IMG/VR virus record: IMGVR_UViG_2541047748_000013
Direction: 5' to 3' (one strand)
Origin: a virus
Taxonomy: Duplodnaviria > Heunggongvirae > Uroviricota > Caudoviricetes
DNA: 41,069 nt
This document shows, piece by piece, positions 1,773 to 34,693 of the stretch (the first letter of the stretch is position 1; each line of letters starts with the position of its first letter). A program made the position numbers and the translations under genes. The notes beneath the pieces are model-generated. The model searched no databases. It had not been told where the DNA came from and was given only the letters and a program-made list of their open reading frames with translations.

Positions 1773-2398
1773 ACCGCCAGCACCTTACTGGCAGTGATGT
1801 ACCGCGCTCGCCGGTCGTCGATGCCGTTCCGGCCACCATTGATAATCAGAGTTACACGTGCAATATCGCCGGTATACTTCATGCATCCTTTGCTGGCGAA
1901 GAACCACGCCGCGCTACGAGCCGCATATCCGTCCTGCGCCAGCAGTTCAGGGCTCTCCAGCAGGTCAACCTTCAGACCGTTTCCGCAATCACGATAGTTA
2001 TTCAAACCGGTAATCTGGATAAGTCCGCGCCCTCGGTAATTCCAGCCATCACCAGGGGCATTGTTCCCCATGCGTTTGCTGTATACCAGATTTGCGATCG
2101 CGCGCTGGCGCTCAAGTGGCAATGGTGGTTCACCAGCACGGCGCCCCAGTGCATTAGCCTGCCCCTGAGTGAGACGCCCAGCCCGAACGAAGTTAGCCAG
2201 TCCGCTGACACTGTAGTTGAAATTCTCCTGCAACCTGGTGAAGCCCCCAGACTCATGCCCGACTTGAGCAATAAACATTGCCTGATCTTCTGCTTTGCTG
2301 ATACCAAACTCTTTCATCGCAGAAGTTATATGCGAGAACCAGCGTGCGGCCAGTGCCTCGCTGATACCAGCAGCTCGCTGGAATTGTTTAATCTCCAT
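1769..2398 (-). CDS. Endolysin, glycoside hydrolase family 19 (chitinase-like lysozyme)
   Basis: Motifs QVGHESGGF and [12 protein letters not shown] typical of GH19; start placed at ATG (MEIKQ) with GAGG RBS 8 nt upstream rather than the longer listed ORF. Confidence 0.85.
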
Positions 2399-2696
2399 GT
2401 TTAGACCTCGATACTTTAAAAATTTGAACGACGTTACCGCGCGTTTTAATAACCGCAGCCAGCATGACAGCGTTGATAATGACCTCAGATAAATCCACAG
2501 CCATTGGCGTACGTAACCAGATTGCATAGGCGACTCGAACAGGAATACTGGCCGCAGCAACAATCAGGAAATAAGCAAGCCATCCTCCCCACCTTCGATG
2601 TTGAGAGCCGTTACGCCGGAATGTGACAACGCGAATTGCTATGCCAGTGCAAATAACTGCATTGGTGATAAGCAAAAAAAACTCATGCGTTACCAT
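2388..2696 (-). CDS. Lysis-cassette membrane protein (holin/antiholin-like)
   Basis: 102 aa with 2-3 predicted hydrophobic helices, positioned between putative holin and endolysin. Confidence 0.45.
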
Positions 2697-3087
2697 CGTC
2701 TTTTCTCCCCGGAATTAACTCGCGTGGATTATCGGAACGGTGATAGAGCCATATACCAATACGCACAGCGACAATTGCTGACACGAATGCGCCTGCAGAG
2801 AAAACAATCCCTTTTTCAAAAGAGTCCTGCGTGATGGTAGGGATCAGGCTGGCTATGCCGATAAGAATTGATGCTGCTGGTTTGTAAAAGAGAAGGCCGC
2901 AAAGAAAGCTGAGCATCGACAGGAGCACCCGGCGACGGATGGGGTACTCTACTGCAGAGGTAACAAAAATTACCGCCCCAGCCAAAGCCCCTAAAGCAAC
3001 CTCCGGAGGGACACCTGCAATAACCGCAGCAAGAGAACCAAAACTAAGCAACTGATTTAATTGCTCACTTGTTACTTGAGCAGACAT
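2683..3087 (-). CDS. Putative holin
   Basis: 134 aa, several hydrophobic helices, charged C-terminus, first gene of the lysis cassette. Confidence 0.5.
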   Translation of the reverse strand: MSAQVTSEQLNQLLSFGSLAAVIAGVPPEVALGALAGAVIFVTSAVEYPIRRRVLLSMLSFLCGLLFYKPAASILIGIASLIPTITQDSFEKGIVFSAGAFVSAIVAVRIGIWLYHRSDNPRELIPGRKDDGNA

Positions 3088-3368
3088 ACTTTCTCCTGTT
3101 TACTATCTATAAGCCAGTCAATTATTGATGACTAACCCCGCATAGTAAACCATATATGAATCATTATTGTTCCATATCATATATCTCAATAAAAGTACTA
3201 ATGATTTTACAGAACGAGCCAGCAGAGTGGGGGCAGTTGTACAGGAACCATAGACTTAATTTTGTATTTAATAATGCTATGGTGTAATAAACCTGAACAT
3301 GTATTTAAAATACGTACTGATTCATGATAGAATTCAAAGATAACTTTTCACAAACTCCGTTTTTGATA

Positions 3369-3395
3369 CCCGCAAAATATTGCGGGCTTTTTTTT
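3369..3395 (+). terminator. Hairpin plus T8 run in plus orientation abutting the tailspike stop
   Basis: cccgcaaaatattgcggg followed by ctttttttt; no U-run in the minus orientation. Confidence 0.35.
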
Positions 3396-6300
3396 AACGT
3401 TCTTCCAGAGACTGAATCCGCTCTTTTATCTTATCCATTTCTCTGCGCTGCCATGCTGCCTCGATATAGAATAAGAGATCAGGTCTGACCCCCCATCTAG
3501 ATCCTGCTGGCGTTATTTCAACGCGCTCAATGATGTCTTCCATTACCATCACTGGATTATCATCCTCATCAACAATGATGCTCCCGTCATTATCAGTCAG
3601 CGGCATTTCCCTTTGGCCAGTAATGACGTCATCATATACTGCGGGATAATCGTCATAGCAAAGAAAGGCATAGCGGCATGTTGTGCTTTCTTCTTCCATG
3701 AGTCCGTGAGAAATAAGAACATCACGAAGTTGCTGCGCGATTACACCATGATGTATCCTCGCCCCTTCTTCCCCCTTTATAGCGACAGCGTTCAGCCATT
3801 TATAAGCGATATACCTGACGTCACCCCAGGCATCCAGCAATGCTTCGTCAGGAGAGACCGGCTCTGTCTTTAATGTTCCGTCACTGGTAACCACAGGATT
3901 GGAGCCAAGATAAACTGTCGAGAACCTGTTTCCCGGACCACCAAGAGCATTTACATTATCAAGATAAGGTTTAACATCTCCGTTCTCAAAAAGATGTTCG
4001 AGTGCGTTATATACCGCGCGACGTGGAGTACTGCTTCCGGAACCATGCAACGTTATCATTGCACCATCTGCTGAAGACGTTGTTTCACCGCCGCTAACGA
4101 TTAATCTCTGAGCGGTAACATCATCAGACGGTACTTTCTTCGCAATAATGGCGTAATTACCCTCAAGTTTGACTTCCGCGCGAACTTGTCCTGATGTACC
4201 TGCATGGACAGTCAGTGACTGGACGGCAACATCATCTGTGAAATCAACGGGTACAGGAACCGTCCTCACGCCTGACGTCGACATAAAAGTAGGAAGCGTT
4301 CTGTTAGGAGTGGCTCCGTAGACAAAATCCCTTGAAACAAATTCTTCCTGTTTAATTTTCACCCTGAAACAATACAAATCAGCCGGGTGACCATCGTGAA
4401 CATAAGGATATTTTCTGTTGTTATCCCCTATGCTCCATGGGTTTAGAAAGTCTTCCCCACCGAAAATGTAGTACAGCCAGTTGTCTTTGATACAAACTGA
4501 ACCAACACCAACCGCAGAGTTAACTATTCCGCCCTGATAAATCTGATCAGTAACATTAACCCACTCTACATTATCCAGACTCCACTCATTGACGTTAACT
4601 CTGGTCATAAATGTTCTTGGATAATTTCCTGCATAACGGTTATCAGGTTCTCCTCCTTCCCACTCACCAAATGCGCGCTCACTGCCAAAAATAATCAGCT
4701 CATCGCCAACTTTGGCAAAAGGAAGGTTTGAGTGATGAACATTATTTGGGAAGCGAAGAGAATTCCATGATGTACCTAAATCAGAGCTTCTGTGCAATGA
4801 ACTACCGGGTTGAGTACTTAATGTCCCCCTGGTCGTCAGATACAGAATGCCATCATAATATTTTACACATGGCTCAGATGCATTCGCCTCATATTCTACA
4901 GGTATGCGTCTGCGAACAAAGCTACCAGGAGAACCGAAAGCATCAGAGAAATAGAGTATCCCAAGCTCGCGTGGACCAATATCACCATTATGGTAGCCAA
5001 CAGCAAAACTGTTATCGCTAATCGTCGCAAAACTGTGAATCTCAGTAACAGGAGTGCTTCCGTCAACAAAAGAAGGAATAGTTCCAAGACTGGTTTTTCT
5101 CCATGGTGACGAGTGAAATGATGTACCAAAACTCCAGTATCTACCCTCGTTATTCTGATCCACATCCTGGGTATTTTGCGTCGTAACTGTAAAAGTATTT
5201 TTATCAATAACAGTAGTCACCGTCATATTCCCGGTAACACCTGTAACACCAGAGTTTGAGAAGTTGACAAAATCACCAGCAAATAATCCGTGATCAGTAA
5301 TGCGAATATAAGCGACTTGCTGATTTGCTGCTTTCGTTATACCACCATAAACGCGAAGGCTGCGACTCATTGGGCGATCCCACAACTCTGCAACCTGCAG
5401 TTTATTTCCGCTCACGGTCCGCGTCTCAATTACAGCAAAAAGGCGATTTCTGACAACCCCCATACTCATGCAGTGATAGTTAACTGTGGGATAGTTTTCA
5501 TGTAAATCTGTAAGCCATTCCGGCGTTGTCCAGGTCTTCCCGTCATCTCCTGAGCGAACCCATGCAACATGGAGGTTATTTACACCATGGCGGTCTCCAG
5601 CCATAAAAGGCGCATAGATGACATTGTCATATACAAACGTTTTATCCTGCGTCCAGGCGTTGTACCACGGTGTATCTGTAATTTTAAATAACTCTCCCTG
5701 GATAAAATCTTCAGAAGCATAAAAAAGAGGCTGGCCCGGTATTCTCTCAAATAAAAAACGAGCATTTTTAAATCGACTGACATCCGGAAGAGTTGATACT
5801 TTAAAAGTAAGCCCTAATCCGTCAATTTTATAACCTGGAGATGAGGCTTCAAGGCACGCGCTTATTGCAGTGGAATCGTCATTTATACCATCACCAACAG
5901 CTCCAAAATCTTTGGGGCTAATAGCATCACGCATTTTATCCTGGAACGTTCGGTACACAGCCCCAGAACCATACTGAATAAACCAACCAAAACCACCAAC
6001 AACCCCGGCGATTGCAGCATCGACATAATTACGCATTGAGCGATTATTTACAGCGTCCTGCTCAAATGATGGATCTGCAAGGTTAGAAATTTTGTTTTGC
6101 TTTGCATCGTAATATTTTGCAAGCAAAGATGGTTTCATCAATGCACGTCTGAACCACCCAAAACATTGCTGGATCAGCATCGTCAGGTAGTCAAAGGCAT
6201 CTTCATGCACTTCGGGGAAAAATTTTCCCTGATTGCGAAGGTCTGTCTCCTGCACTACATCAAGCACACGATCTATCGTAATTCGCCATCCAGTAGCAAG

Positions 6301-6513
6301 CGGAGACGGAAGAACCACAGAACCGCCACTATAAGTGCCCGCCCCAGTTACCGTATAACCGGTATCCAGAACCAATTCTGTTACGTTCCCGTTCAGGTCA
6401 GACACCTGAACAACCAGGTCTGATTTTCTGAAAATTCGAAAAGTATACGGAAACGATGTCGTAACGCCGTTACCGGTGTATTCGTTGTGGTCAACTTCGG
6501 TTGAGACCGTCAT
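3394..6513 (-). CDS. Tailspike/tail fiber: T7 gp17-like N-terminal adaptor, sialidase-like Asp-box beta-propeller, C-terminal S74-type intramolecular chaperone
   Basis: N-terminus resembles podovirus tail-fiber anchoring domain; Asp-boxes SGDDGKTW and SSDLGTSW; DFGAVGDGINDD motif; C-terminal SDGTLKT...HGVIAQQL region resembles autoproteolytic chaperone domain. Confidence 0.8.
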   Translation of the reverse strand: MTVSTEVDHNEYTGNGVTTSFPYTFRIFRKSDLVVQVSDLNGNVTELVLDTGYTVTGAGTYSGGSVVLPSPLATGWRITIDRVLDVVQETDLRNQGKFFPEVHEDAFDYLTMLIQQCFGWFRRALMKPSLLAKYYDAKQNKISNLADPSFEQDAVNNRSMRNYVDAAIAGVVGGFGWFIQYGSGAVYRTFQDKMRDAISPKDFGAVGDGINDDSTAISACLEASSPGYKIDGLGLTFKVSTLPDVSRFKNARFLFERIPGQPLFYASEDFIQGELFKITDTPWYNAWTQDKTFVYDNVIYAPFMAGDRHGVNNLHVAWVRSGDDGKTWTTPEWLTDLHENYPTVNYHCMSMGVVRNRLFAVIETRTVSGNKLQVAELWDRPMSRSLRVYGGITKAANQQVAYIRITDHGLFAGDFVNFSNSGVTGVTGNMTVTTVIDKNTFTVTTQNTQDVDQNNEGRYWSFGTSFHSSPWRKTSLGTIPSFVDGSTPVTEIHSFATISDNSFAVGYHNGDIGPRELGILYFSDAFGSPGSFVRRRIPVEYEANASEPCVKYYDGILYLTTRGTLSTQPGSSLHRSSDLGTSWNSLRFPNNVHHSNLPFAKVGDELIIFGSERAFGEWEGGEPDNRYAGNYPRTFMTRVNVNEWSLDNVEWVNVTDQIYQGGIVNSAVGVGSVCIKDNWLYYIFGGEDFLNPWSIGDNNRKYPYVHDGHPADLYCFRVKIKQEEFVSRDFVYGATPNRTLPTFMSTSGVRTVPVPVDFTDDVAVQSLTVHAGTSGQVRAEVKLEGNYAIIAKKVPSDDVTAQRLIVSGGETTSSADGAMITLHGSGSSTPRRAVYNALEHLFENGDVKPYLDNVNALGGPGNRFSTVYLGSNPVVTSDGTLKTEPVSPDEALLDAWGDVRYIAYKWLNAVAIKGEEGARIHHGVIAQQLRDVLISHGLMEEESTTCRYAFLCYDDYPAVYDDVITGQREMPLTDNDGSIIVDEDDNPVMVMEDIIERVEITPAGSRWGVRPDLLFYIEAAWQRREMDKIKERIQSLEER

Positions 6514-6617
6514 GTTAAATCTCCAGATAGTCGCAGCACCCGTTGCGCCGCATATCTGGTTATTCTATTACCTGAAAAACCACATATGGATAGAAAGACT
6601 GTAAATACGAATAGATA

Positions 6618-6632
6618 TTACCTTTCAGGTAA
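6618..6632. promoter_or_regulatory. TTACC-N5-GGTAA dyad (putative phage repressor operator) upstream of the antirepressor island
   Basis: Perfect dyad TTACCTTTCAGGTAA; identical copy at 25793-25807. Confidence 0.5.
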
Positions 6633-6671
6633 TTTGCAAAACGTGCTGGATAGCAAACAAATTATTTGCTA

Positions 6672-6687
6672 CTGTATAAATATACAG
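6672..6687. promoter_or_regulatory. LexA (SOS) box
   Basis: CTGTATAAATATACAG matches CTGT-N8-ACAG with AT-rich spacer; overlaps a TATAAAT -10-like element 22 nt upstream of the 6709 start codon. Confidence 0.7.
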
Positions 6688-6708
6688 TTATTGCATGGAG
6701 AAGATAAG

Positions 6709-6966
6709 ATGCAGCAGTATCACTATCCACTGGAAGACGGATTTACCGAAAGGATTCACACGCCGGGAGGCGTCAGGTCACTGGTGGAGGGATCGCACTT
6801 GATGAAATTACTCCGGGATCTCGATAAGGATGGATTTAATGTCGATGGCCCACTTGCCGAACTGACTGCACTGATTAACTACGTCACCAGCTCACAGATG
6901 TCTATGCAGGATCTGCAAACACATCTCGACTATTGTGCCGAACAATTACGAAAACAAACCAGATAA
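6709..6966 (+). CDS. Small protein homologous to the C-terminal domain of the downstream antirepressor
   Basis: 86 aa; GGAG RBS 8 nt upstream; aligns by eye with the Ant C-terminus (LMKLLRDLDKDGFNVDGPLAELT / LMNLLNQLQEDGHDVSGAAAELT; QDLQTHLDY / RDIQTHAEY). Confidence 0.6.
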   Translation: MQQYHYPLEDGFTERIHTPGGVRSLVEGSHLMKLLRDLDKDGFNVDGPLAELTALINYVTSSQMSMQDLQTHLDYCAEQLRKQTR

Positions 6967-6997
6967 GATTTGAAATTACCAATAGGAGTGCTTATAT

Positions 6998-7012
6998 TTA
7001 CCTTTGCGGTAA
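6998..7012. promoter_or_regulatory. TTACC-N5-GGTAA dyad inside a larger hairpin between the ant-like gene and ant
   Basis: TTACCTTTGCGGTAA flanked by inverted repeat AGGAGTGC...GCACTCCT. Confidence 0.45.
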
Positions 7013-7103
7013 ATTTACATCGCACTCCTCTTGTGCCATAGTAATCGGGCACTGGCAAAATCCAGTGCCGGGATTGGCGTCCCGGGTTACTAAGTGGCGC
7101 ATA

Positions 7104-7125
7104 CCACGCCAGACGTGGTTTTTTT
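7104..7125 (+). terminator. Intrinsic terminator upstream of ant
   Basis: CCACG ccaga CGTGG followed by T7 run. Confidence 0.55.
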
Positions 7126-7281
7126 ATGCGTTAAGCACAGCTATATCCGAATTATGGTGGGCTGGGCAGGGGTCCGAAAGGACGCCGGTACCACTTAGGC
7201 CGGTACGCCAACCTTGTCCAGTTCACCACCAGTAATTGGCGTTGCGGTGGTGATTAAAATCACTAAGTGGAGATAACCACC

Positions 7282-7992
7282 ATGGCTAATGCTCAAACTG
7301 CCATCTTCAAATTTGAATCTGTTAACCCTATCCGTTCCATCATTATCGATGGCCAACCATGGTTTGTAGCCCAAGACGTTTGTAGTGCGCTGCGTATCCA
7401 AAACGTCACCCAAGCACTTGAAAAACTGGATGATGATGAAAGGTCTATGTTCAACATAGGGCATGAACATCGTGCAATTTTTGACAGCCGAGTAAAAGAG
7501 ATCAACATTATCTCCGAGTCAGGCCTCTACACACTGATCCTCCGCTGCCGCGACGCAGTGACACCAGGCACTATCCCCTACCGCTTTCGTAAATGGGTTA
7601 CAGGTGAGGTTCTTCCTCAGATCCGCCGCACCGGAAGCTACATTAAAAACTCGCTCCCGCAGGAAGAACGCATAAAGATGGTTGCCGACCAGGTAGCCAA
7701 CGCCACAGCATCAGCAGTAATGCAGGCGATGAAGATAGAGAACAAAACCTACAGCGCCCCGCTGAAGCCCGGCTACCGCAGTTTGATTCACTCGCCGTCG
7801 GGTGTTCTCGGCCTGACGGAGAACTCACTGCTGATGAATTTGCTGAACCAGTTACAGGAAGACGGGCATGACGTATCGGGCGCGGCGGCGGAGCTGACCA
7901 CCATGTTCTGCTACATCGTCGGTGTGAGCAAATGCCTGCGTGATATCCAGACCCACGCGGAGTACATCAACGACAAGGCAGGGTTCTTCTGA
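7282..7992 (+). CDS. ant: Antirepressor, Bro-N/KilA-N N-terminal domain with Ant-type C-terminal domain
   Basis: Bro-N-like N-terminus (FVAQDVCSAL...SGLYTLILRCRD); GGAG RBS 9 nt upstream of ATG at 7282. Confidence 0.8.
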   Translation: MANAQTAIFKFESVNPIRSIIIDGQPWFVAQDVCSALRIQNVTQALEKLDDDERSMFNIGHEHRAIFDSRVKEINIISESGLYTLILRCRDAVTPGTIPYRFRKWVTGEVLPQIRRTGSYIKNSLPQEERIKMVADQVANATASAVMQAMKIENKTYSAPLKPGYRSLIHSPSGVLGLTENSLLMNLLNQLQEDGHDVSGAAAELTTMFCYIVGVSKCLRDIQTHAEYINDKAGFF

Positions 7993-8077
7993 CGAGCGGC
8001 GGCACATGGATGTGCCTACAATTATCAATAATTGTTTACACTCGTTGCAGTTAAAAGCATTATACTCATGTTTAAAA

Positions 8078-8092
8078 TTACCCGATTGGTAA
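8078..8092. promoter_or_regulatory. TTACC-N5-GGTAA dyad overlapping the promoter region of the moron operon
   Basis: TTACCCGATTGGTAA 22 nt upstream of the 8114 start; TAAAAT -10-like hexamer abuts it. Confidence 0.45.
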
Positions 8093-8113
8093 AGTCGATT
8101 GGTTGAGGTTCAT

Positions 8114-8440
8114 ATGAGCAGAAGATATGTCAAGGAGCTGGCTATAGAGTCTGGCACCCCTTTGGGTATCGTTCCTGGCTCCAACTATGCCAAGGCTTTA
8201 AACCGAGACTCTGTCGTCAAAGTTATATCAAGAGACATGAATATGGTCGGAGACGATCTCAGACGGTCAGAAAATCGTGTTTATGCTGAATATATAGTAA
8301 AGAACGGAAAAAAAATTGCAGCGCCTGCTGGCGGAAAATGGGCAATAGTGACAGGGAAAAACTCAAATGCAAGAGGAAAACCAGAAGCTAAAGGAATGTC
8401 CTTCGACAAATATGCAAAAATCTATTGGGCAACCAAGTGA
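8114..8440 (+). CDS. Hypothetical protein (moron operon gene 1)
   Basis: ATG with GAGG RBS 5-6 nt upstream; 109 aa basic protein, no family recognised. Confidence 0.45.
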   Translation: MSRRYVKELAIESGTPLGIVPGSNYAKALNRDSVVKVISRDMNMVGDDLRRSENRVYAEYIVKNGKKIAAPAGGKWAIVTGKNSNARGKPEAKGMSFDKYAKIYWATK

Positions 8441-8915
8441 TAACGAAGAAACTGAGTTCGAGGAAGTTGAGGAAGGGCTAAGTAACGAGATCATTCAACA
8501 CCCAGATGCCTTCACAAGAGTTCTTGATCGCCCTGAAATTCAGGAGATAGTTGTCGCTCACCATGCGTTTCAGGGTCCGCTTCCTCCCCCCTATCTGCTT
8601 CGCGGGTATCAGGATATTTTACCTGATGCCCCCGAACGCATCTTCCAGCTGACGGAGAAGGAGTTTGCTCACCGCCAGAAAATGGAGGAAAAGGCACTTG
8701 ACGGGGCTATTAATAGAGATAAACGTGGGCAGTGGTTTGGCCTGAGTGCAACTATTTTTACAGTAGCTTGTGCAACATTATTAGGTTTAACAGGTCATGA
8801 AGTTCTAGCTGGCACAGTGATCGGTACAGTTGTTGCAGTGGCTGGTATTTTCGTTCTTAGACAAAAACCAAGCATCAAGAAGAAATCTGAAGACAACAAA
8901 CCTGAAGAAAAGTAA
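8367..8915 (+). CDS. DUF2335-like membrane protein (moron operon gene 2)
   Basis: Acidic N-terminus, HHAFQGPLPPPYLL motif, two C-terminal hydrophobic helices; overlaps previous ORF, start uncertain (8367 or 8412). Confidence 0.5.
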   Translation: MQEENQKLKECPSTNMQKSIGQPSDNEETEFEEVEEGLSNEIIQHPDAFTRVLDRPEIQEIVVAHHAFQGPLPPPYLLRGYQDILPDAPERIFQLTEKEFAHRQKMEEKALDGAINRDKRGQWFGLSATIFTVACATLLGLTGHEVLAGTVIGTVVAVAGIFVLRQKPSIKKKSEDNKPEEK

Positions 8916-8936
8916 GCCCGCGCTGCGGGCTTTTTT
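8916..8936 (+). terminator. Intrinsic terminator after the moron operon
   Basis: GCCCGC gct GCGGGC followed by T6. Confidence 0.6.
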
Positions 8937-8967
8937 GTGGACGAAACAAAAGTCAGTGCTACACTCA

Positions 8968-8995
8968 TTGACGCCACATTGAGGTGGCTTATAGA
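8968..8995 (+). promoter_or_regulatory. Putative sigma70 promoter for the small secreted-peptide gene
   Basis: TTGACG, 16-bp spacer, TATAGA. Confidence 0.35.
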
Positions 8996-9008
8996 TGGAA
9001 ATGTCACA

Positions 9009-9170
9009 ATGAAAAAAGCATTTGCTGCACTGTTCGTTTTGTTGTCTCTGGTAGCTTCAACTCAGGCCTTTGCCGGTCGTTGTCAGCACGACAGCGATAC
9101 CGCCGCTGACGGCTCCCGCTGCGGTGGGCGTTCTGCGGATTCCCGCCCGGGCGGCGGTGGCATTCGTTAA
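9009..9170 (+). CDS. Small secreted Cys-containing peptide (53 aa precursor)
   Basis: Signal peptide MKKAFAALFVLLSLVASTQAFA; own promoter and flanking terminators; internal Met of listed ORF 8937-9170. Confidence 0.4.
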   Translation: MKKAFAALFVLLSLVASTQAFAGRCQHDSDTAADGSRCGGRSADSRPGGGGIR

Positions 9171-9192
9171 AAACAAGGCCGCGAAAGCGGCC
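9171..9192. terminator. Bidirectional intrinsic terminator between convergent genes
   Basis: GGCCGC gaaa GCGGCC with A-run upstream and T-rich tract downstream. Confidence 0.55.
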
Positions 9193-9193
9193 T

Positions 9194-9205
9194 GTGACAT
9201 GTCAC
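9194..9205. repeat. 12-bp perfect palindrome GTGACATGTCAC, copy 1 of 3; contains the TGA stop of the 9202-9498 gene
   Basis: Exact 12-mer also at 26777-26788 and 29042-29053, each next to a terminator hairpin. Confidence 0.6.
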
Positions 9206-9498
9206 GTTCCTTTTCTGAATGATAGCCGTTCGAAAAATGATGACATTCCACCGCAGACAATAGCAAAGATGATCCCACCAAAGAAGAGAAGGCCAGCCTG
9301 CCACCACTCCCACCGCCATACATCCACAGCACCAACCATACCAACAATCGCTCCAACAAATGGAATATAGCTCACGATGAAAGCAATGGGGGCTGCAATT
9401 ATCCAGTGCAATCCCCACCATGATTCAAGCCCAGCCATAATTGCTGCCAACTGAAAAAGGCCAACGACGATATAAACAATGAATCCTATCGCTTGCAT
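9202..9498 (-). CDS. Small integral membrane protein (3 TM), superinfection-exclusion-like position
   Basis: 98 aa, Trp-rich hydrophobic helices, directly downstream of the ejection-protein genes. Confidence 0.5.
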   Translation of the reverse strand: MQAIGFIVYIVVGLFQLAAIMAGLESWWGLHWIIAAPIAFIVSYIPFVGAIVGMVGAVDVWRWEWWQAGLLFFGGIIFAIVCGGMSSFFERLSFRKGT

Positions 9499-9510: not shown

Positions 9511-9684
9511 TTACCCAGTAAAAATCAGAGGCCTCCCCTCAATAAGGCTTGCAACAAGAACTATTCCCTGCACAACAAAGATGAACCAGCAAATAGCTTG
9601 AGTCTGAGGGTTAAGAAAATATTTGTAGCGGTCAATAAATAACAACCCACCAGAAATTATCACACTCAAAATAATTAAAAACAC
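9511..9684 (-). CDS. Possible small hydrophobic protein (GTG start)
   Basis: 57-codon ORF not in the supplied track; AAGGAAG RBS 4-5 nt upstream of GTG; two hydrophobic segments. Confidence 0.3.
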   Translation of the reverse strand: MFLIILSVIISGGLLFIDRYKYFLNPQTQAICWFIFVVQGIVLVASLIEGRPLIFTG

Positions 9685-9693: not shown

Positions 9694-12168
9694 TTATTGC
9701 GGAGTGACATCCTGAGGTCGCCACCAGTATGTCTGATTAAACTCTTTCTTCGAACGTTGCTCCATTTTACGCAAATAGCCTGGTGAAAAATACTCCTGCA
9801 TCTGGTTCAAGATCATATGATCGAGAGCCGCCTTTAAGTACCAGAGATTCGCACCTGGCATCAAACCTTTCCCCAGCTTCACCAGATCACCACCAGTCTG
9901 CTCACTCTTCCCTTCCACAGCATTTAACGGTATGCCCTGAGCAATCTTCACTACGTCATCAACCAGACCAGCTACCGGGCCAAGCATCGACGCCAGCGCG
10001 CCGCTTCCGTACCTAGTGTGATCTGACAATAAAAAGTCACCGTAAAGGCCAAGGCCACCACCTTTCAGTAGAGCACCAAGCCAGAATTTTGCGGCACCTT
10101 CTCCTGTCATCTCTCGAGGATTACGACCAGACGCAAGGTCGTTAAGTTGCTGCGACAAAGCGCCAAGAATGGTCGTACTGGCAATAAACGTCGCAATATA
10201 TGCCGCACGCCCACCAGCAGACGGCATACCCATAGCGCGTGACCAGTGACGCATAACAACCGAGATAGGGAACGATTTAAACAGGAAAACACTTCTCGTT
10301 AATTCACCTTTCCATGTTCCACGCTGAATACCAGAACCGGTTATCAGTTGCTCACGTGCTCCCGGTGTAATAACAGCCATATCAACTTCTTCAGTTACGG
10401 CACCGAGCAGTTTACGCATTGCCTCAAATTTCACTCGTTCAGGCTCACCAAGATGTTTAACTGCTGAATCAGGGATACGCATAATGCTTTCCGGTGTCAG
10501 CATCGTATTATTACCGTTCCCCCAGTCCTCCTGTTGCGCCAGCTTCCATACGCTCCAGTCTGTGTCAGTAATCCCTTTGCTTTTCAGGATACGAAAATCA
10601 GAGTCATCGAGGCTACGAAGGTCTGGTGTCCGTGACACTACTTCTCCCAGGCTTCCCATCATGGTTACGCCATAGGCGCGCTTGTGCGCATCTGACCATG
10701 CTGTAAGCCCACTGGCACGCATTACGGCCGTTGCCGCCCAACGAGACACTGACGGCCCCATATTATCCATCGCCCAGCGGTTAACGCTGCCAAGTAGAGA
10801 TTCCATCGCCAGACCAGCGCGGCGCGCCCGCGCAAGTTCTGTACGGTTCGTTGGGTCCATAGCTTCAAGCTGGTTGCGGAATAACTGGTTCATTGGAAGG
10901 TTGGTAACCTTCGCAGACAGATACATGGTTCCAAGATCAGAGAACGATGACAGCAACGCGGATCCGAGTCTGCTGGCAACCAGCCAGTTGCGGATATTGT
11001 CAGACCATCGCGCGATGTGCGGATTCGCTACAGGCTGTGTCTTTCCAGAAATAAAGTTGTACAGATTCTCTGTGTTGTTCGCCAGCCGCTCGACTTTACC
11101 GGTTTTACTCGGGTTAGCTGTTGCCGTTTCTGCCTTAACCTGATCAAGAAGGGAGCGGAAAACATGATCGGGGTTTGGGCCATATGTTTCCACCAGTGCA
11201 ATATCTTTACTGATACCTTCCAGGTGACCGACCATGATTTCCCATAGAGAGCGATCGCCATAAAGTTGCTGATATTGCAGATAGGAATCTGCATCTTTGA
11301 AATGTATCTGTCGTGATGCATTACCACGGTTAGCACGTGCGCCGGAAATTCGCATTCCGGTATCAGTAAGCTTATTCAGCCCACCAGTAGCGATCGTGTT
11401 ATAAGCCTCTCCAAGAAATGCAGACAACTCGGCATCGTTCATCAGTTGTCCATCGGCTCGGGTATAATATTTGCGATCCAGCTTACCTATAACATCGCTA
11501 ACCCATTTATCTTTTGATACCGCCCCAACCTTTTCCATAGAATGATGTTGAGGGATCCCCCAGTTTTCGAGATAGCCAATGTCCCCACCAGCATCATTAA
11601 ACCGGCGGCGGAGTAGATCTGTCACTTCTCTCCACGCCTTAGCACCTTTTCTTGCTTTAGCATTGCCAGTATTTTGCCCTCGCATTTCATATACCAGGTC
11701 ACGCACGCCCGCTTCATCTTCAAACAGGCCAAAAAAGCGAGGATCAACTGCTTCGAATGCCTCCTGCAATTGACTCAATGCATAATCACGAGTGGCTTTT
11801 GTTCTGGACTCAACAGAGAGGAAATTCGATTTACCGTCTGCATTAAAAGCAATAGTACGGTTAAGAGCGCCAAGTTTCCCATCAGCCCCTTGATAGCTAT
11901 TGATAAATTTATCCAATCTCTGACGTGCGGCTATAGTAAGAGCCACACGACGTTTCTTTAATGCCGCTTCTCGCTGTAATTCTTCAGATGCCAATTGTGC
12001 TGCACGATACAGCCGCTCTGACTCGGAAAGTTGTCGCCACGACATAGGGTCATCACGAGCAATGGAGCGCATATTGCGATAAATGCGGTCTTCAATGTTC
12101 TGTATTTCTCGCGCCGTTAACGTGCGCTGCGCCGCCTGCTGGACCGCTTGTATACATTCCTGTCTCAT
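9694..12168 (-). CDS. Internal virion / DNA-ejection protein (large)
   Basis: 824 aa, last of three large proteins following internal-virion-protein B-like gene, as in T7 gp15/gp16 block. Confidence 0.55.
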   Translation of the reverse strand: MRQECIQAVQQAAQRTLTAREIQNIEDRIYRNMRSIARDDPMSWRQLSESERLYRAAQLASEELQREAALKKRRVALTIAARQRLDKFINSYQGADGKLGALNRTIAFNADGKSNFLSVESRTKATRDYALSQLQEAFEAVDPRFFGLFEDEAGVRDLVYEMRGQNTGNAKARKGAKAWREVTDLLRRRFNDAGGDIGYLENWGIPQHHSMEKVGAVSKDKWVSDVIGKLDRKYYTRADGQLMNDAELSAFLGEAYNTIATGGLNKLTDTGMRISGARANRGNASRQIHFKDADSYLQYQQLYGDRSLWEIMVGHLEGISKDIALVETYGPNPDHVFRSLLDQVKAETATANPSKTGKVERLANNTENLYNFISGKTQPVANPHIARWSDNIRNWLVASRLGSALLSSFSDLGTMYLSAKVTNLPMNQLFRNQLEAMDPTNRTELARARRAGLAMESLLGSVNRWAMDNMGPSVSRWAATAVMRASGLTAWSDAHKRAYGVTMMGSLGEVVSRTPDLRSLDDSDFRILKSKGITDTDWSVWKLAQQEDWGNGNNTMLTPESIMRIPDSAVKHLGEPERVKFEAMRKLLGAVTEEVDMAVITPGAREQLITGSGIQRGTWKGELTRSVFLFKSFPISVVMRHWSRAMGMPSAGGRAAYIATFIASTTILGALSQQLNDLASGRNPREMTGEGAAKFWLGALLKGGGLGLYGDFLLSDHTRYGSGALASMLGPVAGLVDDVVKIAQGIPLNAVEGKSEQTGGDLVKLGKGLMPGANLWYLKAALDHMILNQMQEYFSPGYLRKMEQRSKKEFNQTYWWRPQDVTPQ

Positions 12169-13976: not shown

Positions 13977-16486
13977 TGCGGAATATCTCCGGAGAATCTC
14001 TGACGCTTCTGTGTCAGATCAAGAACAACAGGAGAACCATCATCTTTCAGCAGATAACCAGTACCAAGTTTCACCAGATACTGACTATCGCCGTAACTTT
14101 GCAAACCATACTGACCAGGCGGTGTTTTTATCCCGGTGCCGACAACTTGTTCATTCCAAGCCTGATTAACCTGCTTATCGAATTGCTCTGCAGACATTCC
14201 CCACGGCAAAAGGACATTCCCCATTCCGTTATAGTCATGCACGCCACCTGTAGCTACGTTAACAGCCTGTTTCCAGATATCAGTGTCAATTTCACCTGAT
14301 ATCACGCCTTTTTTCGCCATCACACCAGCGTAATAGTCCTTTGCGATCTCGTATGCCATTGATGCCCCCTGAGCATCACCAGCAAATGCATCCTTCACCA
14401 TGTCAGAAAACTCAAGGCGAAGATCAGCATCTTTAGGCATCGGAATACCTTTCGCATCATCAGTACCTTTACGAGCCGCCGCGCCAGCAAGAATTGTCTG
14501 CGCAGCGGTTTCAGGAGACACGGAAACATCCGGATTAAACCAGTTTTTTTCTGCCAAAATACCACCAGGCTTGTCCATCAGTATCCCGGCAACGGCAGCA
14601 GATGGAGCGTTGGCACTGATCTGCTGTAGTGCTGACATATACACCTGCCCACCACCAGTGCTCTGCCTGATGGTATCGAGATATGCTGCCTGTTGGGAAA
14701 CTGGAGCATCACGAAAGAAAACACCGATCTGATTGGCCTCGTCTTTGGAAAAGAACGTCAGTGGAGTGCCATATGACTTAGCAAGGTCACTGACCTGAGC
14801 GGCACGCAAGGCAACGCTCTGTCCAAAGTTATCCTTATTGCTCATGTCGATAGGCTTTGTCTGTCCGGAGGCAAGAGAGAACTGCACAGGATCCGACTGC
14901 CGCTGCTTTATCACCTGATTTGCAGCCGAAACAACGTTGTCATAAAGAGCTGCGCGTGCCGCATACCCCTCCCCTGTTTCACCAGTATCCGGGCGTAATT
15001 GCTCAACATATGCTGTAATGCTGCTTGTCGGCATGTTGCGGAAAGAGCCTATATACTGTCCGGCGATCTGCGTATTCTTAAACTCGGTATATCGCAGGTT
15101 TCCTTCTCTGACTCCATAAGCTGCAATAAAATCATCCTCACCAGGTGGGTTAGGAAATTCAACGCCACGCATATACGCAGCCGTCGCATCGCGAACCCGG
15201 CTGTCGAGCATCGTTTTATATTCAGCCTGCTGTTGTCTGGCTAGTGCATCAGTCTGTCGCAACACGCTGGCCTGATCTGATTCACTTAAAGCATCGAACC
15301 AGGCTACACCGGTATAACGTTTATTTTTTGTCGGTAGCTGAGAAAGCCCCAGCGCAGCACTAACACCTGCAGTTAACTGCTGATCACTGTATGGCTGGCT
15401 ACCGTTTTCATGATGGATAATGGCTGCACAAAGCGCCTTCAGGGTATCAGGATTTGATGCATCGAGAGGCTCATCAGCAGAAACGCCAAGTTGTTCGCAC
15501 ACTGCTTTGATATACGACATAGTGTCATTTTTATCAGTAGGCGGTGCCCAGCGATTAATTATCTCGCTGACGGTATCAATACCCTGCCGCTGATACGACA
15601 TCAGGTTCCGCCCTAATGCACGAATACCGTGTTCAGGGGTTTCGAATTTGGCAAAGCGACCATCATCACCAGTCTGCCCAACCCACGGATTAGTTTTGCT
15701 GTATTCAAGATTGCCGGGGTTATTGTTGCGTATACCGCGGGTACGATCGGAAGAGCCACTATCTGCTACAGCACGGCGAGATCCAGCAGCAGTATCGCTT
15801 AACTCGCCGTTTTGCTGTCTTACCTGAAGATAGTTTGCTCCAATAGCATTTTGAGCAGTTGCTTTTGCTGTTGCTTCTTTAAACTCGATTTTCTTGGCCT
15901 GGATTTGCTCGTCACTCCAGCCATGTGCAATGCCGTAATCCTCAATTTGCTGGAAAGTTTGCTTATTAGCCAATACGTATGCGGCGTTGTCGCCATACAA
16001 TGCTGCGGCATTTTTACCATTGTTCAGCAGCGTAGCCTGAAACTGGCCTTCTTCGTAGGCATTTATTTGCCCTATCTCGTACCTCCCGGCCTGCGTAGTG
16101 AACTGAATGCGCTGCTGCTGCGCCTGCTGCATGAAAGCATTACGAGCCTGTTCATCCGGCAGCGACATAGCCAGTTGTTCGACCTGAGCATCAAACTGCT
16201 GCGTATACTCATGGCCTTTTCCAATAGCATTTTTCCCTTTCAGGTTAAGCAATCCTGTTTCAGGATTATTCAGCAGATCGCTGCTTATCTGACTGAGGTT
16301 AAGAGATGCCTCCTGAGCCAGAGCGATATTGGCACGCTGTTTTTCCTGACCAAAAACATCAATTGCCTCTGTCCCTGCCCGAACAAAAGCATTACCAATA
16401 CCTGGCTGAGAAAACGTCTGCAAGCCTGCTGACTGAACTCCACGACTTTGCACCTGGCGTCCGGATGTAGTAGGAACAACAGGCAT
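13973..16486 (-). CDS. Internal virion protein with putative peptidoglycan-hydrolase domain
   Basis: 837 aa; contains RNNNPGN motif region seen in virion-associated lysozyme domains. Confidence 0.55.
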   Translation of the reverse strand: MPVVPTTSGRQVQSRGVQSAGLQTFSQPGIGNAFVRAGTEAIDVFGQEKQRANIALAQEASLNLSQISSDLLNNPETGLLNLKGKNAIGKGHEYTQQFDAQVEQLAMSLPDEQARNAFMQQAQQQRIQFTTQAGRYEIGQINAYEEGQFQATLLNNGKNAAALYGDNAAYVLANKQTFQQIEDYGIAHGWSDEQIQAKKIEFKEATAKATAQNAIGANYLQVRQQNGELSDTAAGSRRAVADSGSSDRTRGIRNNNPGNLEYSKTNPWVGQTGDDGRFAKFETPEHGIRALGRNLMSYQRQGIDTVSEIINRWAPPTDKNDTMSYIKAVCEQLGVSADEPLDASNPDTLKALCAAIIHHENGSQPYSDQQLTAGVSAALGLSQLPTKNKRYTGVAWFDALSESDQASVLRQTDALARQQQAEYKTMLDSRVRDATAAYMRGVEFPNPPGEDDFIAAYGVREGNLRYTEFKNTQIAGQYIGSFRNMPTSSITAYVEQLRPDTGETGEGYAARAALYDNVVSAANQVIKQRQSDPVQFSLASGQTKPIDMSNKDNFGQSVALRAAQVSDLAKSYGTPLTFFSKDEANQIGVFFRDAPVSQQAAYLDTIRQSTGGGQVYMSALQQISANAPSAAVAGILMDKPGGILAEKNWFNPDVSVSPETAAQTILAGAAARKGTDDAKGIPMPKDADLRLEFSDMVKDAFAGDAQGASMAYEIAKDYYAGVMAKKGVISGEIDTDIWKQAVNVATGGVHDYNGMGNVLLPWGMSAEQFDKQVNQAWNEQVVGTGIKTPPGQYGLQSYGDSQYLVKLGTGYLLKDDGSPVVLDLTQKRQRFSGDIPQ

Positions 16487-25770: not shown

Positions 25771-25807
25771 TTGACATTTAACGCACAAATTATTACCTTT
25801 CAGGTAA
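25771..25807 (+). promoter_or_regulatory. Putative plus-strand promoter (TTGACA) with TTACC-N5-GGTAA dyad upstream of tRNA-Arg
   Basis: TTGACA at 25771-25776; dyad TTACCTTTCAGGTAA at 25793-25807 identical to the 6618 site. Confidence 0.4.
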
Positions 25808-26129: not shown

Positions 26130-26206
26130 GTGGCATTAGCTCAGTTGGACAGAGCAACCGCCTTCTAAGCGGTTGGTCGCAGGTTCGAATCCTGCATGCC
26201 ACGCCA
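26130..26206 (+). tRNA. tRNA-Arg (anticodon UCU)
   Basis: Manual cloverleaf: acceptor GTGGCAT/ATGCCAC, D-stem GCTC/GAGC, anticodon stem ACCGC/GCGGT with loop CTTCTAA, T-arm GCAGG-TTCGAAT-CCTGC, discriminator G, encoded CCA. Confidence 0.9.
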
Positions 26207-28931: not shown

Positions 28932-28948
28932 AACCACCGTGGTAATAG

Positions 28949-31704: not shown

Positions 31705-31751
31705 TTAAAAACCACATAAGACATGAAATCAATAGAGTTTATAATATTTTG

Positions 31752-34108: not shown

Positions 34109-34693
34109 ATGAAAAGTATCCAGGACGTCCGCAGGCAAAATCTCAACGACTTGATCGACCGTGAATTCAATGGTGTTCAGACGCGGATGGCTGAAAAACT
34201 TGGAACTCAGGCAAATCTGGTAAACCGCTGGGCTCTTGGCAAGAAGGTTATCGGCGACCAGGTTGCACGAAAAATTGAAGCTGCCGCCAATAAACCCCGT
34301 AACTGGCTTGATATTGATCGCTCGCTTTCTCAGGAGGGTTTTCAGCCTGTCGGCCCGAGCGATATAGGTCAGCTGGCGGCTCACAACCTGGAACGCTGGA
34401 TGAGCGAAAGCCGCGACCTTTCAACGCAGGGAAAACTACACCGCGCATCCGGCGTCGCCCAGGTGACAATCAGCCGCCTGTTAAACAATGAGGTCAGCGT
34501 TTCCATTTCCACCCTGGAGAATGTTGCATCCGCATTCGGGCGTCACGGCTATGAATTACTGATTCACCCGCACGACCCTGCGACCATCAACTATGATCGC
34601 TCGCGCTACGCATTGTTACCCGAAACCGAGAAAGCAAAGATCGAAAGTTACATTGAATTTGTCATCAACCAGAACGAAAAAAACAAACAATAA
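34109..34693 (+). CDS. CI-type repressor with tandem HTH domains and no S24 peptidase domain
   Basis: 194 aa; two XRE-like HTH segments; no Ala-Gly/Ser-Lys autocleavage domain visible; short leader. Confidence 0.6.
   Translation: MKSIQDVRRQNLNDLIDREFNGVQTRMAEKLGTQANLVNRWALGKKVIGDQVARKIEAAANKPRNWLDIDRSLSQEGFQPVGPSDIGQLAAHNLERWMSESRDLSTQGKLHRASGVAQVTISRLLNNEVSVSISTLENVASAFGRHGYELLIHPHDPATINYDRSRYALLPETEKAKIESYIEFVINQNEKNKQ

What the first reader, a model, noticed from the sequence alone, without database searches (positions are those of the whole stretch)
8078..9170. Moron island between ejection genes and the antirepressor: two-gene membrane operon plus secreted peptide
A self-contained plus-strand unit sits among minus-strand virion genes: an operator dyad at its promoter, a 109-aa hypothetical protein, a DUF2335-like two-TM membrane protein, a terminator, then a separately promoted 53-aa signal-peptide-bearing peptide flanked by terminators. 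Location and architecture fit lysogenic-conversion or defence cargo (superinfection exclusion, abortive infection, or a secreted effector), and none of the three proteins has an assigned function. Whether the operator represses or permits expression in the lysogen is an open question.
Basis: inference. Interest (0 to 1): 0.6.

Follow-up and report, generated by a model that had tools for sequence, protein, structure and literature searches.

The report
Repressor-controlled cargo slot in a prophage
This stretch is the swappable cargo slot of a phiV10/epsilon15-type E. coli prophage; here it holds a mobile, uncharacterised gene pair (a small basic protein and a DUF2335 membrane protein) behind a promoter carrying the phage's own repressor operator, followed by a separate small secreted-peptide gene.

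Summary
Three real genes lie at 8114-9170:
- A: 108 aa, basic.
- B: DUF2335, two C-terminal membrane helices.
- C: 53 aa with a signal peptide.
All three are under purifying selection, and promoter-like sites, a dyad and hairpin terminators are present.

The dyad TTACC-N5-GGTAA (8078-8092) is not private to this unit. It occurs 10 times in the window (0.03 expected), including a triple operator between the cro-like gene and a homologue of the SPC32H Rep repressor. A-B is therefore most likely repressed in the lysogen and switched on with the antirepressors. That weakens the lysogenic-conversion reading for A-B.

The promoter/operator and the terminator plus C form a constant frame. Related phages carry other cargo in the same slot (a YafO-like toxin pair, DUF4760, tiny ORFs).

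A and B always travel together with overlapping frames, in 13 of 13 contexts:
- other prophage types;
- a phage-plasmid;
- Streptococcus prophage ends;
- an Enterobacter defence island, directly after Avs8/PD-lambda-4.

No characterised relative exists, and the structure models were poor. My best guess is a two-part, membrane-acting phage-exclusion or abortive module. This is inferred, not shown. Interest is moderate.

The parts
8001..8016 (+). Hairpin GGCACAT-GG-ATGTGCC just after the Bro-N gene stop. It is the constant left edge of the cargo slot.
   Evidence: Read from the sequence. The same element precedes every cargo type in related phages. Terminator function was not tested.
8018..8035 (.). 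Perfect 18-bp palindrome ACAATTAT-CA-ATAATTGT abutting the TTTACA hexamer.
   Evidence: unique in the window. It is present in EC.W1-9 and degenerate in the Enterobacter and Leclercia copies. It is absent from slot promoters with other cargo and from the Klebsiella and Rahnella copies. Not a conserved feature; role unknown.
8035..8078 (+). Slot promoter, with two overlapping sigma-70-like candidates: TTTACA-17-CATTAT (8035-8063) and TTAAAA-16-TAAAAT (8051-8078).
   Evidence: 9/12 matches each; consensus level only. A TAnnnT hexamer whose last T is the first T of the dyad is kept in all six aligned contexts, with TTGACG or TTGCAA 16 nt upstream in the others.
8078..8092 (.). Operator dyad TTACC-N5-GGTAA, inferred to be the binding site of the phage Rep repressor. 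It overlaps the -10/start region of the A-B promoter.
   Evidence: 10 exact copies in the window against 0.03 expected; triple arrangement between the cro-like gene and Rep; invariant upstream of A in all Enterobacterales copies.
8114..8440 (+). Gene A: 108-aa basic (pI 10) soluble protein with no Pfam domain (phrog_10654). It has a conserved N-terminal ~50 aa (ESGxPLGIxPxSxY...DMxxVGxDLRR) and a C-terminal FxKYAxLYxxTK motif.
   Evidence: The family is tiny: 19 clusters at 90% identity and 11 representatives among 1.84 billion proteins.
8367..8915 (+). Gene B: 182-aa DUF2335 protein (alternative start 8412 gives 167 aa). It has an acidic N-terminus, a DUF2335 core at residues 73-122, two transmembrane helices (123-142 and 144-166) and a Lys-rich tail. 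It overlaps gene A by 74 nt (29 nt from the alternative start).
   Evidence: (phrog_3996).
8914..8932 (+). Intrinsic terminator AAGCCCGC-GCT-GCGGGCTT followed by a T-run. It ends the cargo transcript and is the first element of the constant right frame.
   Evidence: It is identical behind A-B, YafO-like, DUF4760 and tiny-ORF cargo.
9009..9170 (+). Gene C: 53-aa precursor with a Sec-type signal peptide (residues 1-22). The 31-aa mature peptide is GRCQHDSDTAADGSRCGGRSADSRPGGGGIR, with two Cys. It is part of the slot frame, not of the A-B module.
   Evidence: (phrog_14503/3117). A possible promoter is TTGACG-16-TATAGA (8967-8994), read from the sequence; it was not reported by the scanner and is poorly conserved.
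9176..9193 (-). Hairpin AGGCCGC-GAAA-GCGGCCT with a T-run on the minus strand. It terminates the converging virion operon and could at best act weakly on C.
   Evidence: The matching phiV10 stretch lies under a feature annotated 'terminator'.
6618..6632 (.). Context: the same operator upstream of the LexA-box-controlled 85-aa antirepressor gene (6709-6966).
6998..7012 (.). Context: the same operator, in the same register to a -10 (TATATT), at the promoter of the isrK/C4 RNA and Bro-N unit (7049-7992).
34109..34693 (+). Context: the trans-acting factor. This 194-aa two-HTH repressor is homologous to Salmonella phage SPC32H Rep and identical to phiV10 gp40.
   Evidence: PDB 5D50_A, E=4e-42.

Best explanation
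**What it is.** The region is the cargo slot of the antirepressor arm of a phiV10/epsilon15-type temperate podophage.

**The frame.** On the left is a sigma-70 promoter whose -10 abuts a 15-bp operator, TTACC-N5-GGTAA. On the right is an intrinsic terminator followed by gene C, which encodes a small secreted, two-cysteine peptide.

**The operator.** It is the one used throughout the phage by its SPC32H-type Rep repressor (inferred from its distribution).

**The cargo here.** It is a mobile two-gene module:
- A is a small basic cytoplasmic protein, translationally coupled to B.
- B is a DUF2335 protein whose cytoplasmic N-terminal domain is anchored by a C-terminal two-helix membrane hairpin.

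**Inferred working.**
- In the lysogen, Rep sits on the transcription start and keeps A-B silent.
- When Rep is removed by the LexA-controlled antirepressor, or before Rep accumulates on infection, A-B is made together with the antirepressors.
- B then acts at the inner membrane, with A as its obligate partner (regulator, sensor or antidote).
- The most likely purpose is to exclude or abort competing phages.
- Copies elsewhere lack Rep and would be expressed constitutively.

**Shown.** Gene reality, pairing, mobility, the slot frame, and the operator's distribution and geometry.

**Inferred.** Rep binding, silencing in the lysogen, membrane action and an exclusion/abortive role.

**Confidence.** About 0.75 for the architecture and regulation, and about 0.35 for the exclusion/abortive function. 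The single figure given (0.45) is for the whole statement.
For: **Phage identity.** The virion arm is 96-98% identical to HEMP4, phiv142-3 and phiV10.

**Operator.**
- 10 exact copies against 0.03 expected.
- A triple site lies between the cro-like gene and Rep, and two sites flank a TTGACA early promoter.
- phiV10 has an identical Rep and the same sites.
- Rep and the 85-aa Ant match SPC32H Rep and Ant (PDB 5D50, E=4e-42 and 4e-47).
- The -10 hexamer ends on the first base of the dyad at both the A-B promoter and the Bro-N promoter.

**Slot frame.** The promoter/operator and the terminator+C are homologous around four different cargoes.

**Pairing.** An overlapping small gene precedes the DUF2335 gene in 13 of 13 independent contexts, and 11 of these upstream proteins carry recognisable A-family motifs; the Methylococcaceae and Streptococcus ones share only a DWxKV fragment. 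A evolves 3-8 times faster than B.

**Accessory locations.** Copies lie downstream of Q in a Rahnella lambdoid prophage, at the end of an E. coli myovirus-type prophage, after the lysin in Streptococcus Javan prophages, and in a phage-plasmid.

**Defence-island neighbours.** In Enterobacter the neighbours are PD-Lambda-4_A (= Avs8, E=0), an ApeA-like protein and Tmn.

**B topology.**
Against: - No experiment or transcript data exist. Rep binding to this dyad is inferred; the SPC32H papers that might list the operators are not held.
- If A-B is silent in lysogens it cannot protect them, so 'defence' would apply only to the lytic phase or to ectopic copies.
- There are no hits in PADLOC, NCBIfam or PDB. 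AF2 models are poor (pLDDT 50 and 60) and Foldseek returned nothing.
- Defence-island association rests on one lineage.
- The exact operator is retained in elements without a nearby Rep. That is not fully explained by this model unless those transfers are recent.
Confidence: 0.45

Rival explanations
1. This is a classical moron. A-B and C are expressed from the prophage in the lysogen and change the host, through superinfection exclusion of the lysogen or a secreted effector.
For: - The unit has its own promoter-like sites and terminator.
- It is present or absent among near-identical phages.
- A-B occupies classic moron positions in other prophages: after Q, after the lysin, and at prophage ends.
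- C has no Rep operator and a separate promoter candidate.
Against: - The A-B promoter carries the immunity operator across its start site, in the same register as the antirepressor promoter.
- That predicts silence in the lysogen.
- C is independent of A-B.
Confidence: 0.15
2. A-B is a toxin-antitoxin-like addiction module. A is a labile antidote and B a membrane toxin. It stabilises the mobile elements that carry it and has no dedicated anti-phage role.
For: - It is a two-gene overlapping operon with the small, fast-evolving gene first.
- The pair is strictly linked everywhere (13 of 13 contexts).
- The same slot holds a YafO-like toxin pair in sister phages.
- It occurs on plasmids and phage-plasmids.
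Against: - There is no similarity to any known TA family.
- B is 182 aa with a large soluble domain, unlike typical small membrane toxins.
- An addiction module that the repressor keeps off in the lysogen would not stabilise the prophage.
Confidence: 0.15
3. A-B is a lytic-cycle accessory of the phage itself. It could be a holin- or antiholin-like lysis-timing factor, a membrane remodelling or host take-over factor, or a factor that prevents superinfection or re-adsorption during the lytic cycle.
For: - It is predicted to be co-regulated with early and antirepressor genes.
- The C-terminal third of B has the N-in/C-in two-helix hairpin plus charged tail typical of class II holins (comparison from general knowledge).
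Against: - The phage already has holin, endolysin and spanin genes at 1748-3087.
- Most relatives, including phiV10, lack A-B and are viable.
- The module also lives in a non-phage defence island.
- B has no holin HMM hit.
Confidence: 0.15
4. The dyad upstream of A is A's own autoregulatory operator. A would be a DNA-binding protein that happens to share, or mimics, Rep's specificity.
For: - The exact dyad is kept upstream of A in elements with no Rep nearby: 1 site in 46 kb, 1 in 14 kb, and one in a defence island.
- A is basic, with pI 10.
Against: - The same dyad and promoter precede unrelated cargo.
- It occurs at nine other regulatory places in the window, and in phiV10, which lacks A.
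- A shows no similarity to Rep or to any DNA-binding fold. Its model has low confidence.
- Homology of the ectopic copies starts about 50-60 nt upstream of the dyad, which fits the promoter simply travelling with the cargo.
Confidence: 0.1

Closest known systems
Moron cassettes of temperate phages (promoter - gene - terminator units such as those described in HK97/lambda-type phages; from general knowledge)
   Same: - It is an accessory unit with its own promoter and terminator.
- It is present or absent among near-identical genomes.
- It is placed between structural and regulatory blocks.
- The same module occupies typical moron positions in other prophages.
   Different: - The promoter and terminator are a fixed frame and the genes between them are swapped.
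- The promoter carries the phage's immunity operator, so expression is predicted in the lytic or induced state rather than in the lysogen.
SPC32H-type Rep/Ant antirepression switch (PDB 5D4Z/5D50; Kim & Ryu 2013 and Kim et al. 2016, cited via PMC7380047, PMC9638917 and PMC9986798)
   Same: - The window encodes homologues of Rep (E=4e-42) and the 85-aa Ant (E=4e-47).
- A LexA box lies upstream of ant.
- The A-B promoter carries the operator that marks the Rep/cro region.
   Different: A, B and C are not part of the described switch. Their link to it is regulatory only, and it is inferred. The published operator sequence could not be read.
P22 immI region with sieA (general knowledge)
   Same: The position is analogous: between the last internal or ejection-type virion genes and the tailspike. 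It also combines an antirepressor under small-RNA or secondary control with membrane-protein accessory genes.
   Different: There is no sequence similarity to SieA. The P22 sie genes are generally described as expressed in the lysogen (general knowledge); here repression by Rep is predicted. Gene orientation and regulators differ (the C4/isrK RNAs and Rep operators here).
Lambda RexA/RexB and other two-part 'cytoplasmic partner + membrane effector' abortive systems (general knowledge)
   Same: The logic is similar: a soluble protein is coupled to a membrane protein, carried by a temperate phage.
   Different: - There is no homology.
- A is only 108 aa and B has two helices rather than four.
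- rexAB is described as co-transcribed with cI in the lysogen (general knowledge), whereas A-B is predicted to be repressed by the repressor.
- No phenotype is known.
Pfam DUF2335 (PF10097) / PHROG 3996 'membrane protein'
   Same: B is a clear member.
   Different: The family has no described function. The only literature mentions found are apparent slips for DUF2235 phospholipases. The obligatory upstream partner gene does not seem to have been described.

Membership tests
Pfam DUF2335 (PF10097) | Match to the family HMM above the gathering score | tested here: met
   B scores 57.2 bits against a cut-off of 25, E=1.6e-15, over profile positions 1-50 of 50. All homologues carry PF10097.
Moron / lysogenic-conversion cassette | Own promoter and own terminator flanking the accessory gene(s) | tested here: met
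   Promoter-like sites at 8035-8078 and a terminator at 8914-8932. The -10 is conserved across contexts. This is consensus-level evidence only.
Moron / lysogenic-conversion cassette | Present or absent among otherwise closely related phage genomes | tested here: met
   A-B occurs in EC.W1-9, ZX5 and 68 of 5426 E. coli genomes. It is absent from phiV10, phiv142-3, HEMP4 and TL-2011b, which carry other cargo or none.
Moron / lysogenic-conversion cassette | Transcribed from the repressed prophage, independently of the phage repressor | tested here: inconclusive
   In silico evidence is against it for A-B, because the immunity operator overlaps the -10/start. C has no operator. Transcript data are needed.
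Known anti-phage defence systems (PADLOC-DB 2.0) | HMM match of a component to a catalogued system | tested here: not met
   No significant hit for A, B or C. The best was MTase_II, E=0.039, for B.
Anti-phage defence (operational definition) | Enrichment next to known defence genes | tested here: inconclusive
   One lineage (Enterobacter) lies 482 nt downstream of PD-Lambda-4_A/Avs8, with ApeA-like and Tmn genes within 10 kb and an Abi_2-like gene in a variant. Other copies are in prophages. No statistics were done.
Anti-phage defence (operational definition) | Reduces phage plating or burst when expressed | not testable with these tools
   Needs cloning and a phage panel.
Type II toxin-antitoxin module | Two small adjacent co-transcribed genes, usually overlapping | tested here: met
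   A and B overlap by 74 nt (or 29 nt) in all Enterobacterales copies. An overlapping upstream gene is present in 13 of 13 contexts.
Type II toxin-antitoxin module | Membership of a known toxin or antitoxin family, or a DNA-binding antitoxin fold | tested here: not met
   No Pfam, NCBIfam or PDB hit for A. The AF2 model has low confidence.
Type II toxin-antitoxin module | Toxicity of one partner neutralised by the other | not testable with these tools
   Needs expression experiments.
Superinfection-exclusion proteins (SieA, SieB, Imm, Sp, Cor, Llp) | Sequence or profile similarity to a described exclusion protein | tested here: not met
   The PHROG hits are function-unknown or generic 'membrane protein' families. 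No Pfam hits were found.
Class II holins | Small protein with two TM helices, N-in/C-in, a charged C-terminus, and a match to a holin family | tested here: not met
   The topology of B residues 123-182 resembles one. However, B is 182 aa with a 120-aa soluble domain and has no holin HMM hit. The phage has its own holin genes.
SPC32H-type Rep regulon (for the dyad) | Rep homologue encoded by the same phage, with a repeated dyad clustered at the rep/cro divergent region and early promoters | tested here: met
SPC32H-type Rep regulon (for the dyad) | Demonstrated Rep binding to this sequence, or identity to published operators | not testable with these tools
   The primary papers are not held. No binding assay is possible.
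Sec-dependent secreted peptide (gene C) | n-region, h-region and an AxA-type cleavage site, with no lipobox | tested here: met
   MKK / AFAALFVLLSLVA / STQAFA|G. Hydrophobic window at residues 3-23. The pattern is conserved in four lineages. Rule-based reading only; no SignalP was run.

The most novel reading that the evidence does not exclude
The A-DUF2335 pair may be an undescribed, ancient two-gene abortive or exclusion system whose promoter deliberately keeps a phage-repressor operator wherever it goes. In copies outside phiV10-like phages (a defence island, lambdoid and myovirus-type prophages), the Rep made by an incoming or co-resident phiV10/epsilon15-like phage would shut off the operon. 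If A is the labile partner, B would be released at the membrane and abort that infection. The module would then be a decoy-operator sensor of a phage repressor. In its home phage the same wiring would fire the module only at induction.
Probability: 0.07. Interest if true: 0.8.

Novelty: new variant of a known kind. Interest (0 to 1): 0.45.

Why it matters
If the reading is right, it would show three things:
- **A fixed expression socket.** phiV10/epsilon15-type phages would have a fixed 'expression socket' (repressor-operated promoter plus terminator) into which different small modules are swapped (TA-like pairs, DUF4760, the A-DUF2335 pair). This is cargo tied to the lytic switch rather than to lysogeny.
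- **A partner for DUF2335.** DUF2335, a widespread family with no known function, would gain an obligatory partner gene, plus a concrete hypothesis that is cheap to test: a membrane-acting exclusion or abortive module.
- **A candidate for defence-island catalogues.** The module sits next to Avs8, Tmn and an ApeA-like gene.

It remains one of very many uncharacterised prophage accessory modules, so the value is moderate until a phenotype is shown.

Tried and rejected
- **Literature on DUF2335, PF10097 and COG5346.** The only hits describe a 'DUF2335 phospholipase' in T6SS effectors, apparently a slip for DUF2235, so they are irrelevant. The DUF4760 search also gave nothing useful.
- **Family and structure databases.** PADLOC, NCBIfam and PDB sequence searches gave no meaningful hits for A, B or C.
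- **Structure prediction.** AF2 gave pLDDT 49.9 for A and 60.1 for B. Foldseek of B against the PDB returned nothing. I ran no further fold searches because the models are too weak.
- **A versus Rep.** Profile comparison showed no similarity.
- **Upstream palindrome 8018-8035.** I considered it as the operator and rejected it: it is unique in the window and not conserved.
- **RNA hairpin reading of the TTACC dyad.** Rejected as the main reading. The stem never covaries, the dyad sits on the predicted start site, and it clusters as a triple site at the rep/cro region.
- **Host-factor site.** Considered, but not testable here because the pattern is too short for the collection scans.
- **SPC32H primary papers.** Not held.
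- **Scan of species-representative genomes with B.** It gave only two loci because of the pattern-based pre-filter. Co-occurrence is therefore based on 13 hand-checked contexts, not on statistics.
Full report
**Context.** Over 1-25000 the window is 96-98% identical to the E. coli phages HEMP4, phiv142-3 and phiV10 (genus Uetakevirus, epsilon15-like temperate podophages). The stretch searched (window 8000-9250) is 100% identical to the chromosome of E. coli SF-468. Minus-strand genes flank the area: the tailspike (3394-6513) and the large virion proteins (9694-12168 and onward). Between them lies a plus-strand block, 6586-9170. The finding is the distal part of that block.

**The observation.**
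- The three ORFs exist as described: A at 8114-8440 (108 aa, good GAGG Shine-Dalgarno), B at 8367-8915 (182 aa, or 167 aa from the ATG at 8412) and C at 9009-9170 (53 aa).
- B is a DUF2335 protein (E=1.6e-15). It has two hydrophobic helices at residues 123-142 and 144-166 and a Lys-rich tail.
- A is soluble and basic, with pI 10. C has a canonical Sec signal peptide ending AFA|G.
- All three fall in PHROG families: 10654 (unknown), 3996 ('membrane protein') and 14503/3117.
- Against copies from Klebsiella, Enterobacter, Rahnella and another E. coli prophage, dN/dS is about 0.045 for B, 0.05-0.07 for C and 0.15-0.40 for A. All three are therefore real genes, and A evolves much faster.
- The hairpin at 8914-8932 is a good intrinsic terminator on the plus strand. 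The hairpin at 9176-9193 has its T-run on the minus strand and mainly serves the converging virion operon.

**The dyad is the phage's immunity operator.**
- The finding starts at 8078, the first base of TTACC-CGATT-GGTAA. The pattern TTACC-N5-GGTAA occurs 10 times in the window against 0.03 expected.
- The copies sit upstream of an 85-aa gene (6618), upstream of the Bro-N gene unit (6998) and upstream of A (8078). Others are at 25793, 28949, 31690 and 31752.
- One exact and two degenerate copies lie in the 150-bp gap between a cro-like gene (33724-33954, minus strand) and a 194-aa two-HTH protein (34109-34693). Two more flank a TTGACA promoter just downstream of that gene.
- The 194-aa protein is a homologue of the Rep repressor of Salmonella phage SPC32H (PDB 5D50_A, E=4e-42) and is identical to phiV10 gp40. 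phiV10 has the same sites.
- The 85-aa protein is the SPC32H antirepressor homologue (5D50_E, E=4e-47) and has a LexA box, CTGTATAAATATACAG, 21 nt upstream of its start codon. This fits what is described for SPC32H: a repressor that works as a tetramer and is taken apart by a small antirepressor (PMC9638917).
- I infer that the dyad is the Rep operator. The papers that might list the operators are not held.
- At both the A-B and the Bro-N promoters, the last T of a TAnnnT -10 hexamer is the first T of the dyad. A bound repressor would therefore cover the start site.

**The slot and its frame.**
- In sister phages the sequence just after the Bro-N stop is homologous whatever follows. That covers the hairpin, the promoter and the operator. 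The terminator, the leader and gene C are likewise almost identical whatever precedes them.
- Between these two frames the window, EC.W1-9 and ZX5 carry A-B. Other genomes carry a YafO-like toxin with a small upstream ORF, a DUF4760 protein, or two tiny ORFs.
- Of 5426 complete E. coli genomes, 537 have some part of the region and only 68 have the whole island.
- C has no Rep operator. It has only a weak, poorly conserved promoter candidate and a small conserved dyad (GCCAC-N4-6-GTGGC) in its leader. It may be expressed in the lysogen, but nothing shows this.

**The A-B pair is an old, mobile unit.** Every DUF2335 gene I inspected has a small gene overlapping its 5' end.

| Context |
|---|
| The window |
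| E. coli myovirus-type prophage, at its very end beside pinE (A 95%, B 95%, C 98%) |
| Klebsiella phiV10-like prophage, where the pair lies upstream of Bro-N (A 49%, B 81%) |
| Chromosomal site beside a transposase |
| Enterobacter island |
| Leclercia prophage |
| Rahnella lambdoid prophages, between the Q antiterminator and the lysis genes, with C adjacent (A 34%, B 70%, C 75%) |
| Three distant metagenomic or genomic homologues (25-36% identical) |
| A Methylococcaceae genome |
| Streptococcus Javan prophages, after the lysin at the genome end |
| An Enterobacter kobei phage-plasmid |

- All but two of the upstream proteins share an N-terminal signature (xGxPLGIxxxSxY ... D(M/W/F)xxVGxDL). 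The Enterobacterales copies and their closest relatives also share a C-terminal FxKYAxLYxxTK motif.
- The A family is very small: 19 clusters at 90% identity and 11 representatives among 1.84 billion proteins.
- Neither protein has a solved or characterised relative. The AF2 models were poor.

**Hints to function.**
1. Location. The pair sits in accessory positions of several unrelated temperate elements.
2. Neighbours. In Enterobacter it lies 482 nt downstream of a full-length PD-Lambda-4_A protein (E=0). Recent work renames this protein Avs8, a capsid-sensing STAND NTPase. An ApeA-like HEPN protein and Tmn are nearby, and a variant has an Abi_2-like gene.
3. Architecture. A basic soluble partner is translationally coupled to a protein whose acidic soluble domain is tethered by a two-helix hairpin with a charged tail.
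4. The partner evolves 3-8 times faster than the membrane protein.

Together these point to a membrane-acting exclusion or abortive module, with A as regulator, sensor or antidote. None of this is direct evidence, and I put it at about 0.35. The last is disfavoured for A-B by the operator.

**An unresolved point.**
- The exact operator, in the same register to the -10, is kept upstream of A in every Enterobacterales copy, including elements without a nearby Rep:
  - the myovirus-type prophage has one site in 46 kb;
  - the Rahnella lambdoid prophage, with a CI-S24 repressor and P22-type Cro, has one site in 14 kb;
  - the Enterobacter defence island also has one.
- Homology of these copies to the window starts at about 8017-8028, some 50-60 nt upstream of the dyad. 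The simplest reading is therefore that the slot promoter travelled with the cargo in separate exports from phiV10-like phages.
- It cannot be excluded that A also binds the dyad, or that trans control by Rep matters for function. The latter is the basis of the 'novel case'.

**Verdict.**
It is wrong in treating the three genes as one self-contained island and in expecting lysogenic expression of A-B.
- It is a new variant of a familiar kind of thing, a prophage accessory cassette. Its two noteworthy features are a fixed repressor-operated expression socket and an undescribed obligate partner for DUF2335.
- Interest is moderate (0.45).

Noticed in passing
window 6672-6687 and 6709-6966: A near-consensus LexA box, CTGTATAAATATACAG, lies 21 nt upstream of the start codon of an 85-aa homologue of the SPC32H antirepressor (PDB 5D50_E, E=4e-47). 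The repressor (34109-34693) has two HTH domains and no peptidase domain. Induction is therefore probably by LexA-controlled antirepression, as in SPC32H.
   Followed up: partly
window 7049-7125 and 7150-7233: Rfam finds isrK (67.7 bits) and C4 antisense RNA (66 bits) in tandem. They lie between a Rep-operated promoter (6970-7012) and the Bro-N protein gene (7267-7992). This is a P1-type c4/ant-like small-RNA control layer on a second antirepressor-like gene, whose C-terminal domain duplicates the 85-aa Ant (phrog_450).
   Followed up: partly
window 25793-25807 and 26130-26206: A TTGACA promoter with a Rep operator sits about 330 nt upstream of a tRNA-Arg(TCT) gene, inside the otherwise minus-strand packaging/head region. 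The phage tRNA may be under repressor control.
   Followed up: no
window 28931-28963, 31690-31766: More Rep-type operators occur at unexpected places. One exact and one single-mismatch copy lie at the start of the small-terminase-like ORF. A pair brackets the divergent region between 31342-31686 (-) and the next genes. Rep may control more than the classical early promoters.
   Followed up: no
L020 5668-9519 and 9742-10543 (Enterobacter, GCA_903935975.1): The A-DUF2335 pair lies directly downstream of a full-length PD-Lambda-4_A/Avs8 gene, with ApeA-like (1987-3324) and Tmn (15417-19355) genes in the same 20 kb. A second TTACC-N5-GGTAA dyad (13749) sits beside a DUF1902 gene.
   Followed up: partly
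L004 7087-8145 versus window 8114-9170: Between these two E. coli copies, synonymous divergence of B (dS 1.1-1.5) is about ten times that of A (0.14) and C (0.19). This indicates recombination inside the module that replaced the B allele.
   Followed up: no
window 8973-8988 (and the same place in L008, L013): A small dyad, GCCAC-N4-6-GTGGC, in the leader/promoter of gene C is kept in the E. coli, Klebsiella and Rahnella copies although the loop differs. It could be a regulatory hairpin or a binding site.
   Followed up: no
window 9202-9498 and 9511-9684 (minus strand): Two very hydrophobic small proteins (98 aa with three helices, phrog_3075; 57 aa with two helices) end the virion operon right against the slot. 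phiV10 has a different small membrane protein there (p21). This is another variable membrane-protein position.
   Followed up: no
L005 4242-5002 (E. coli HCM-28C-2): In the same slot, the YafO-family toxin gene is preceded by an unannotated small ORF starting about 70 nt after the operator. This is probably its partner, so that cargo is also a two-gene module.
   Followed up: no
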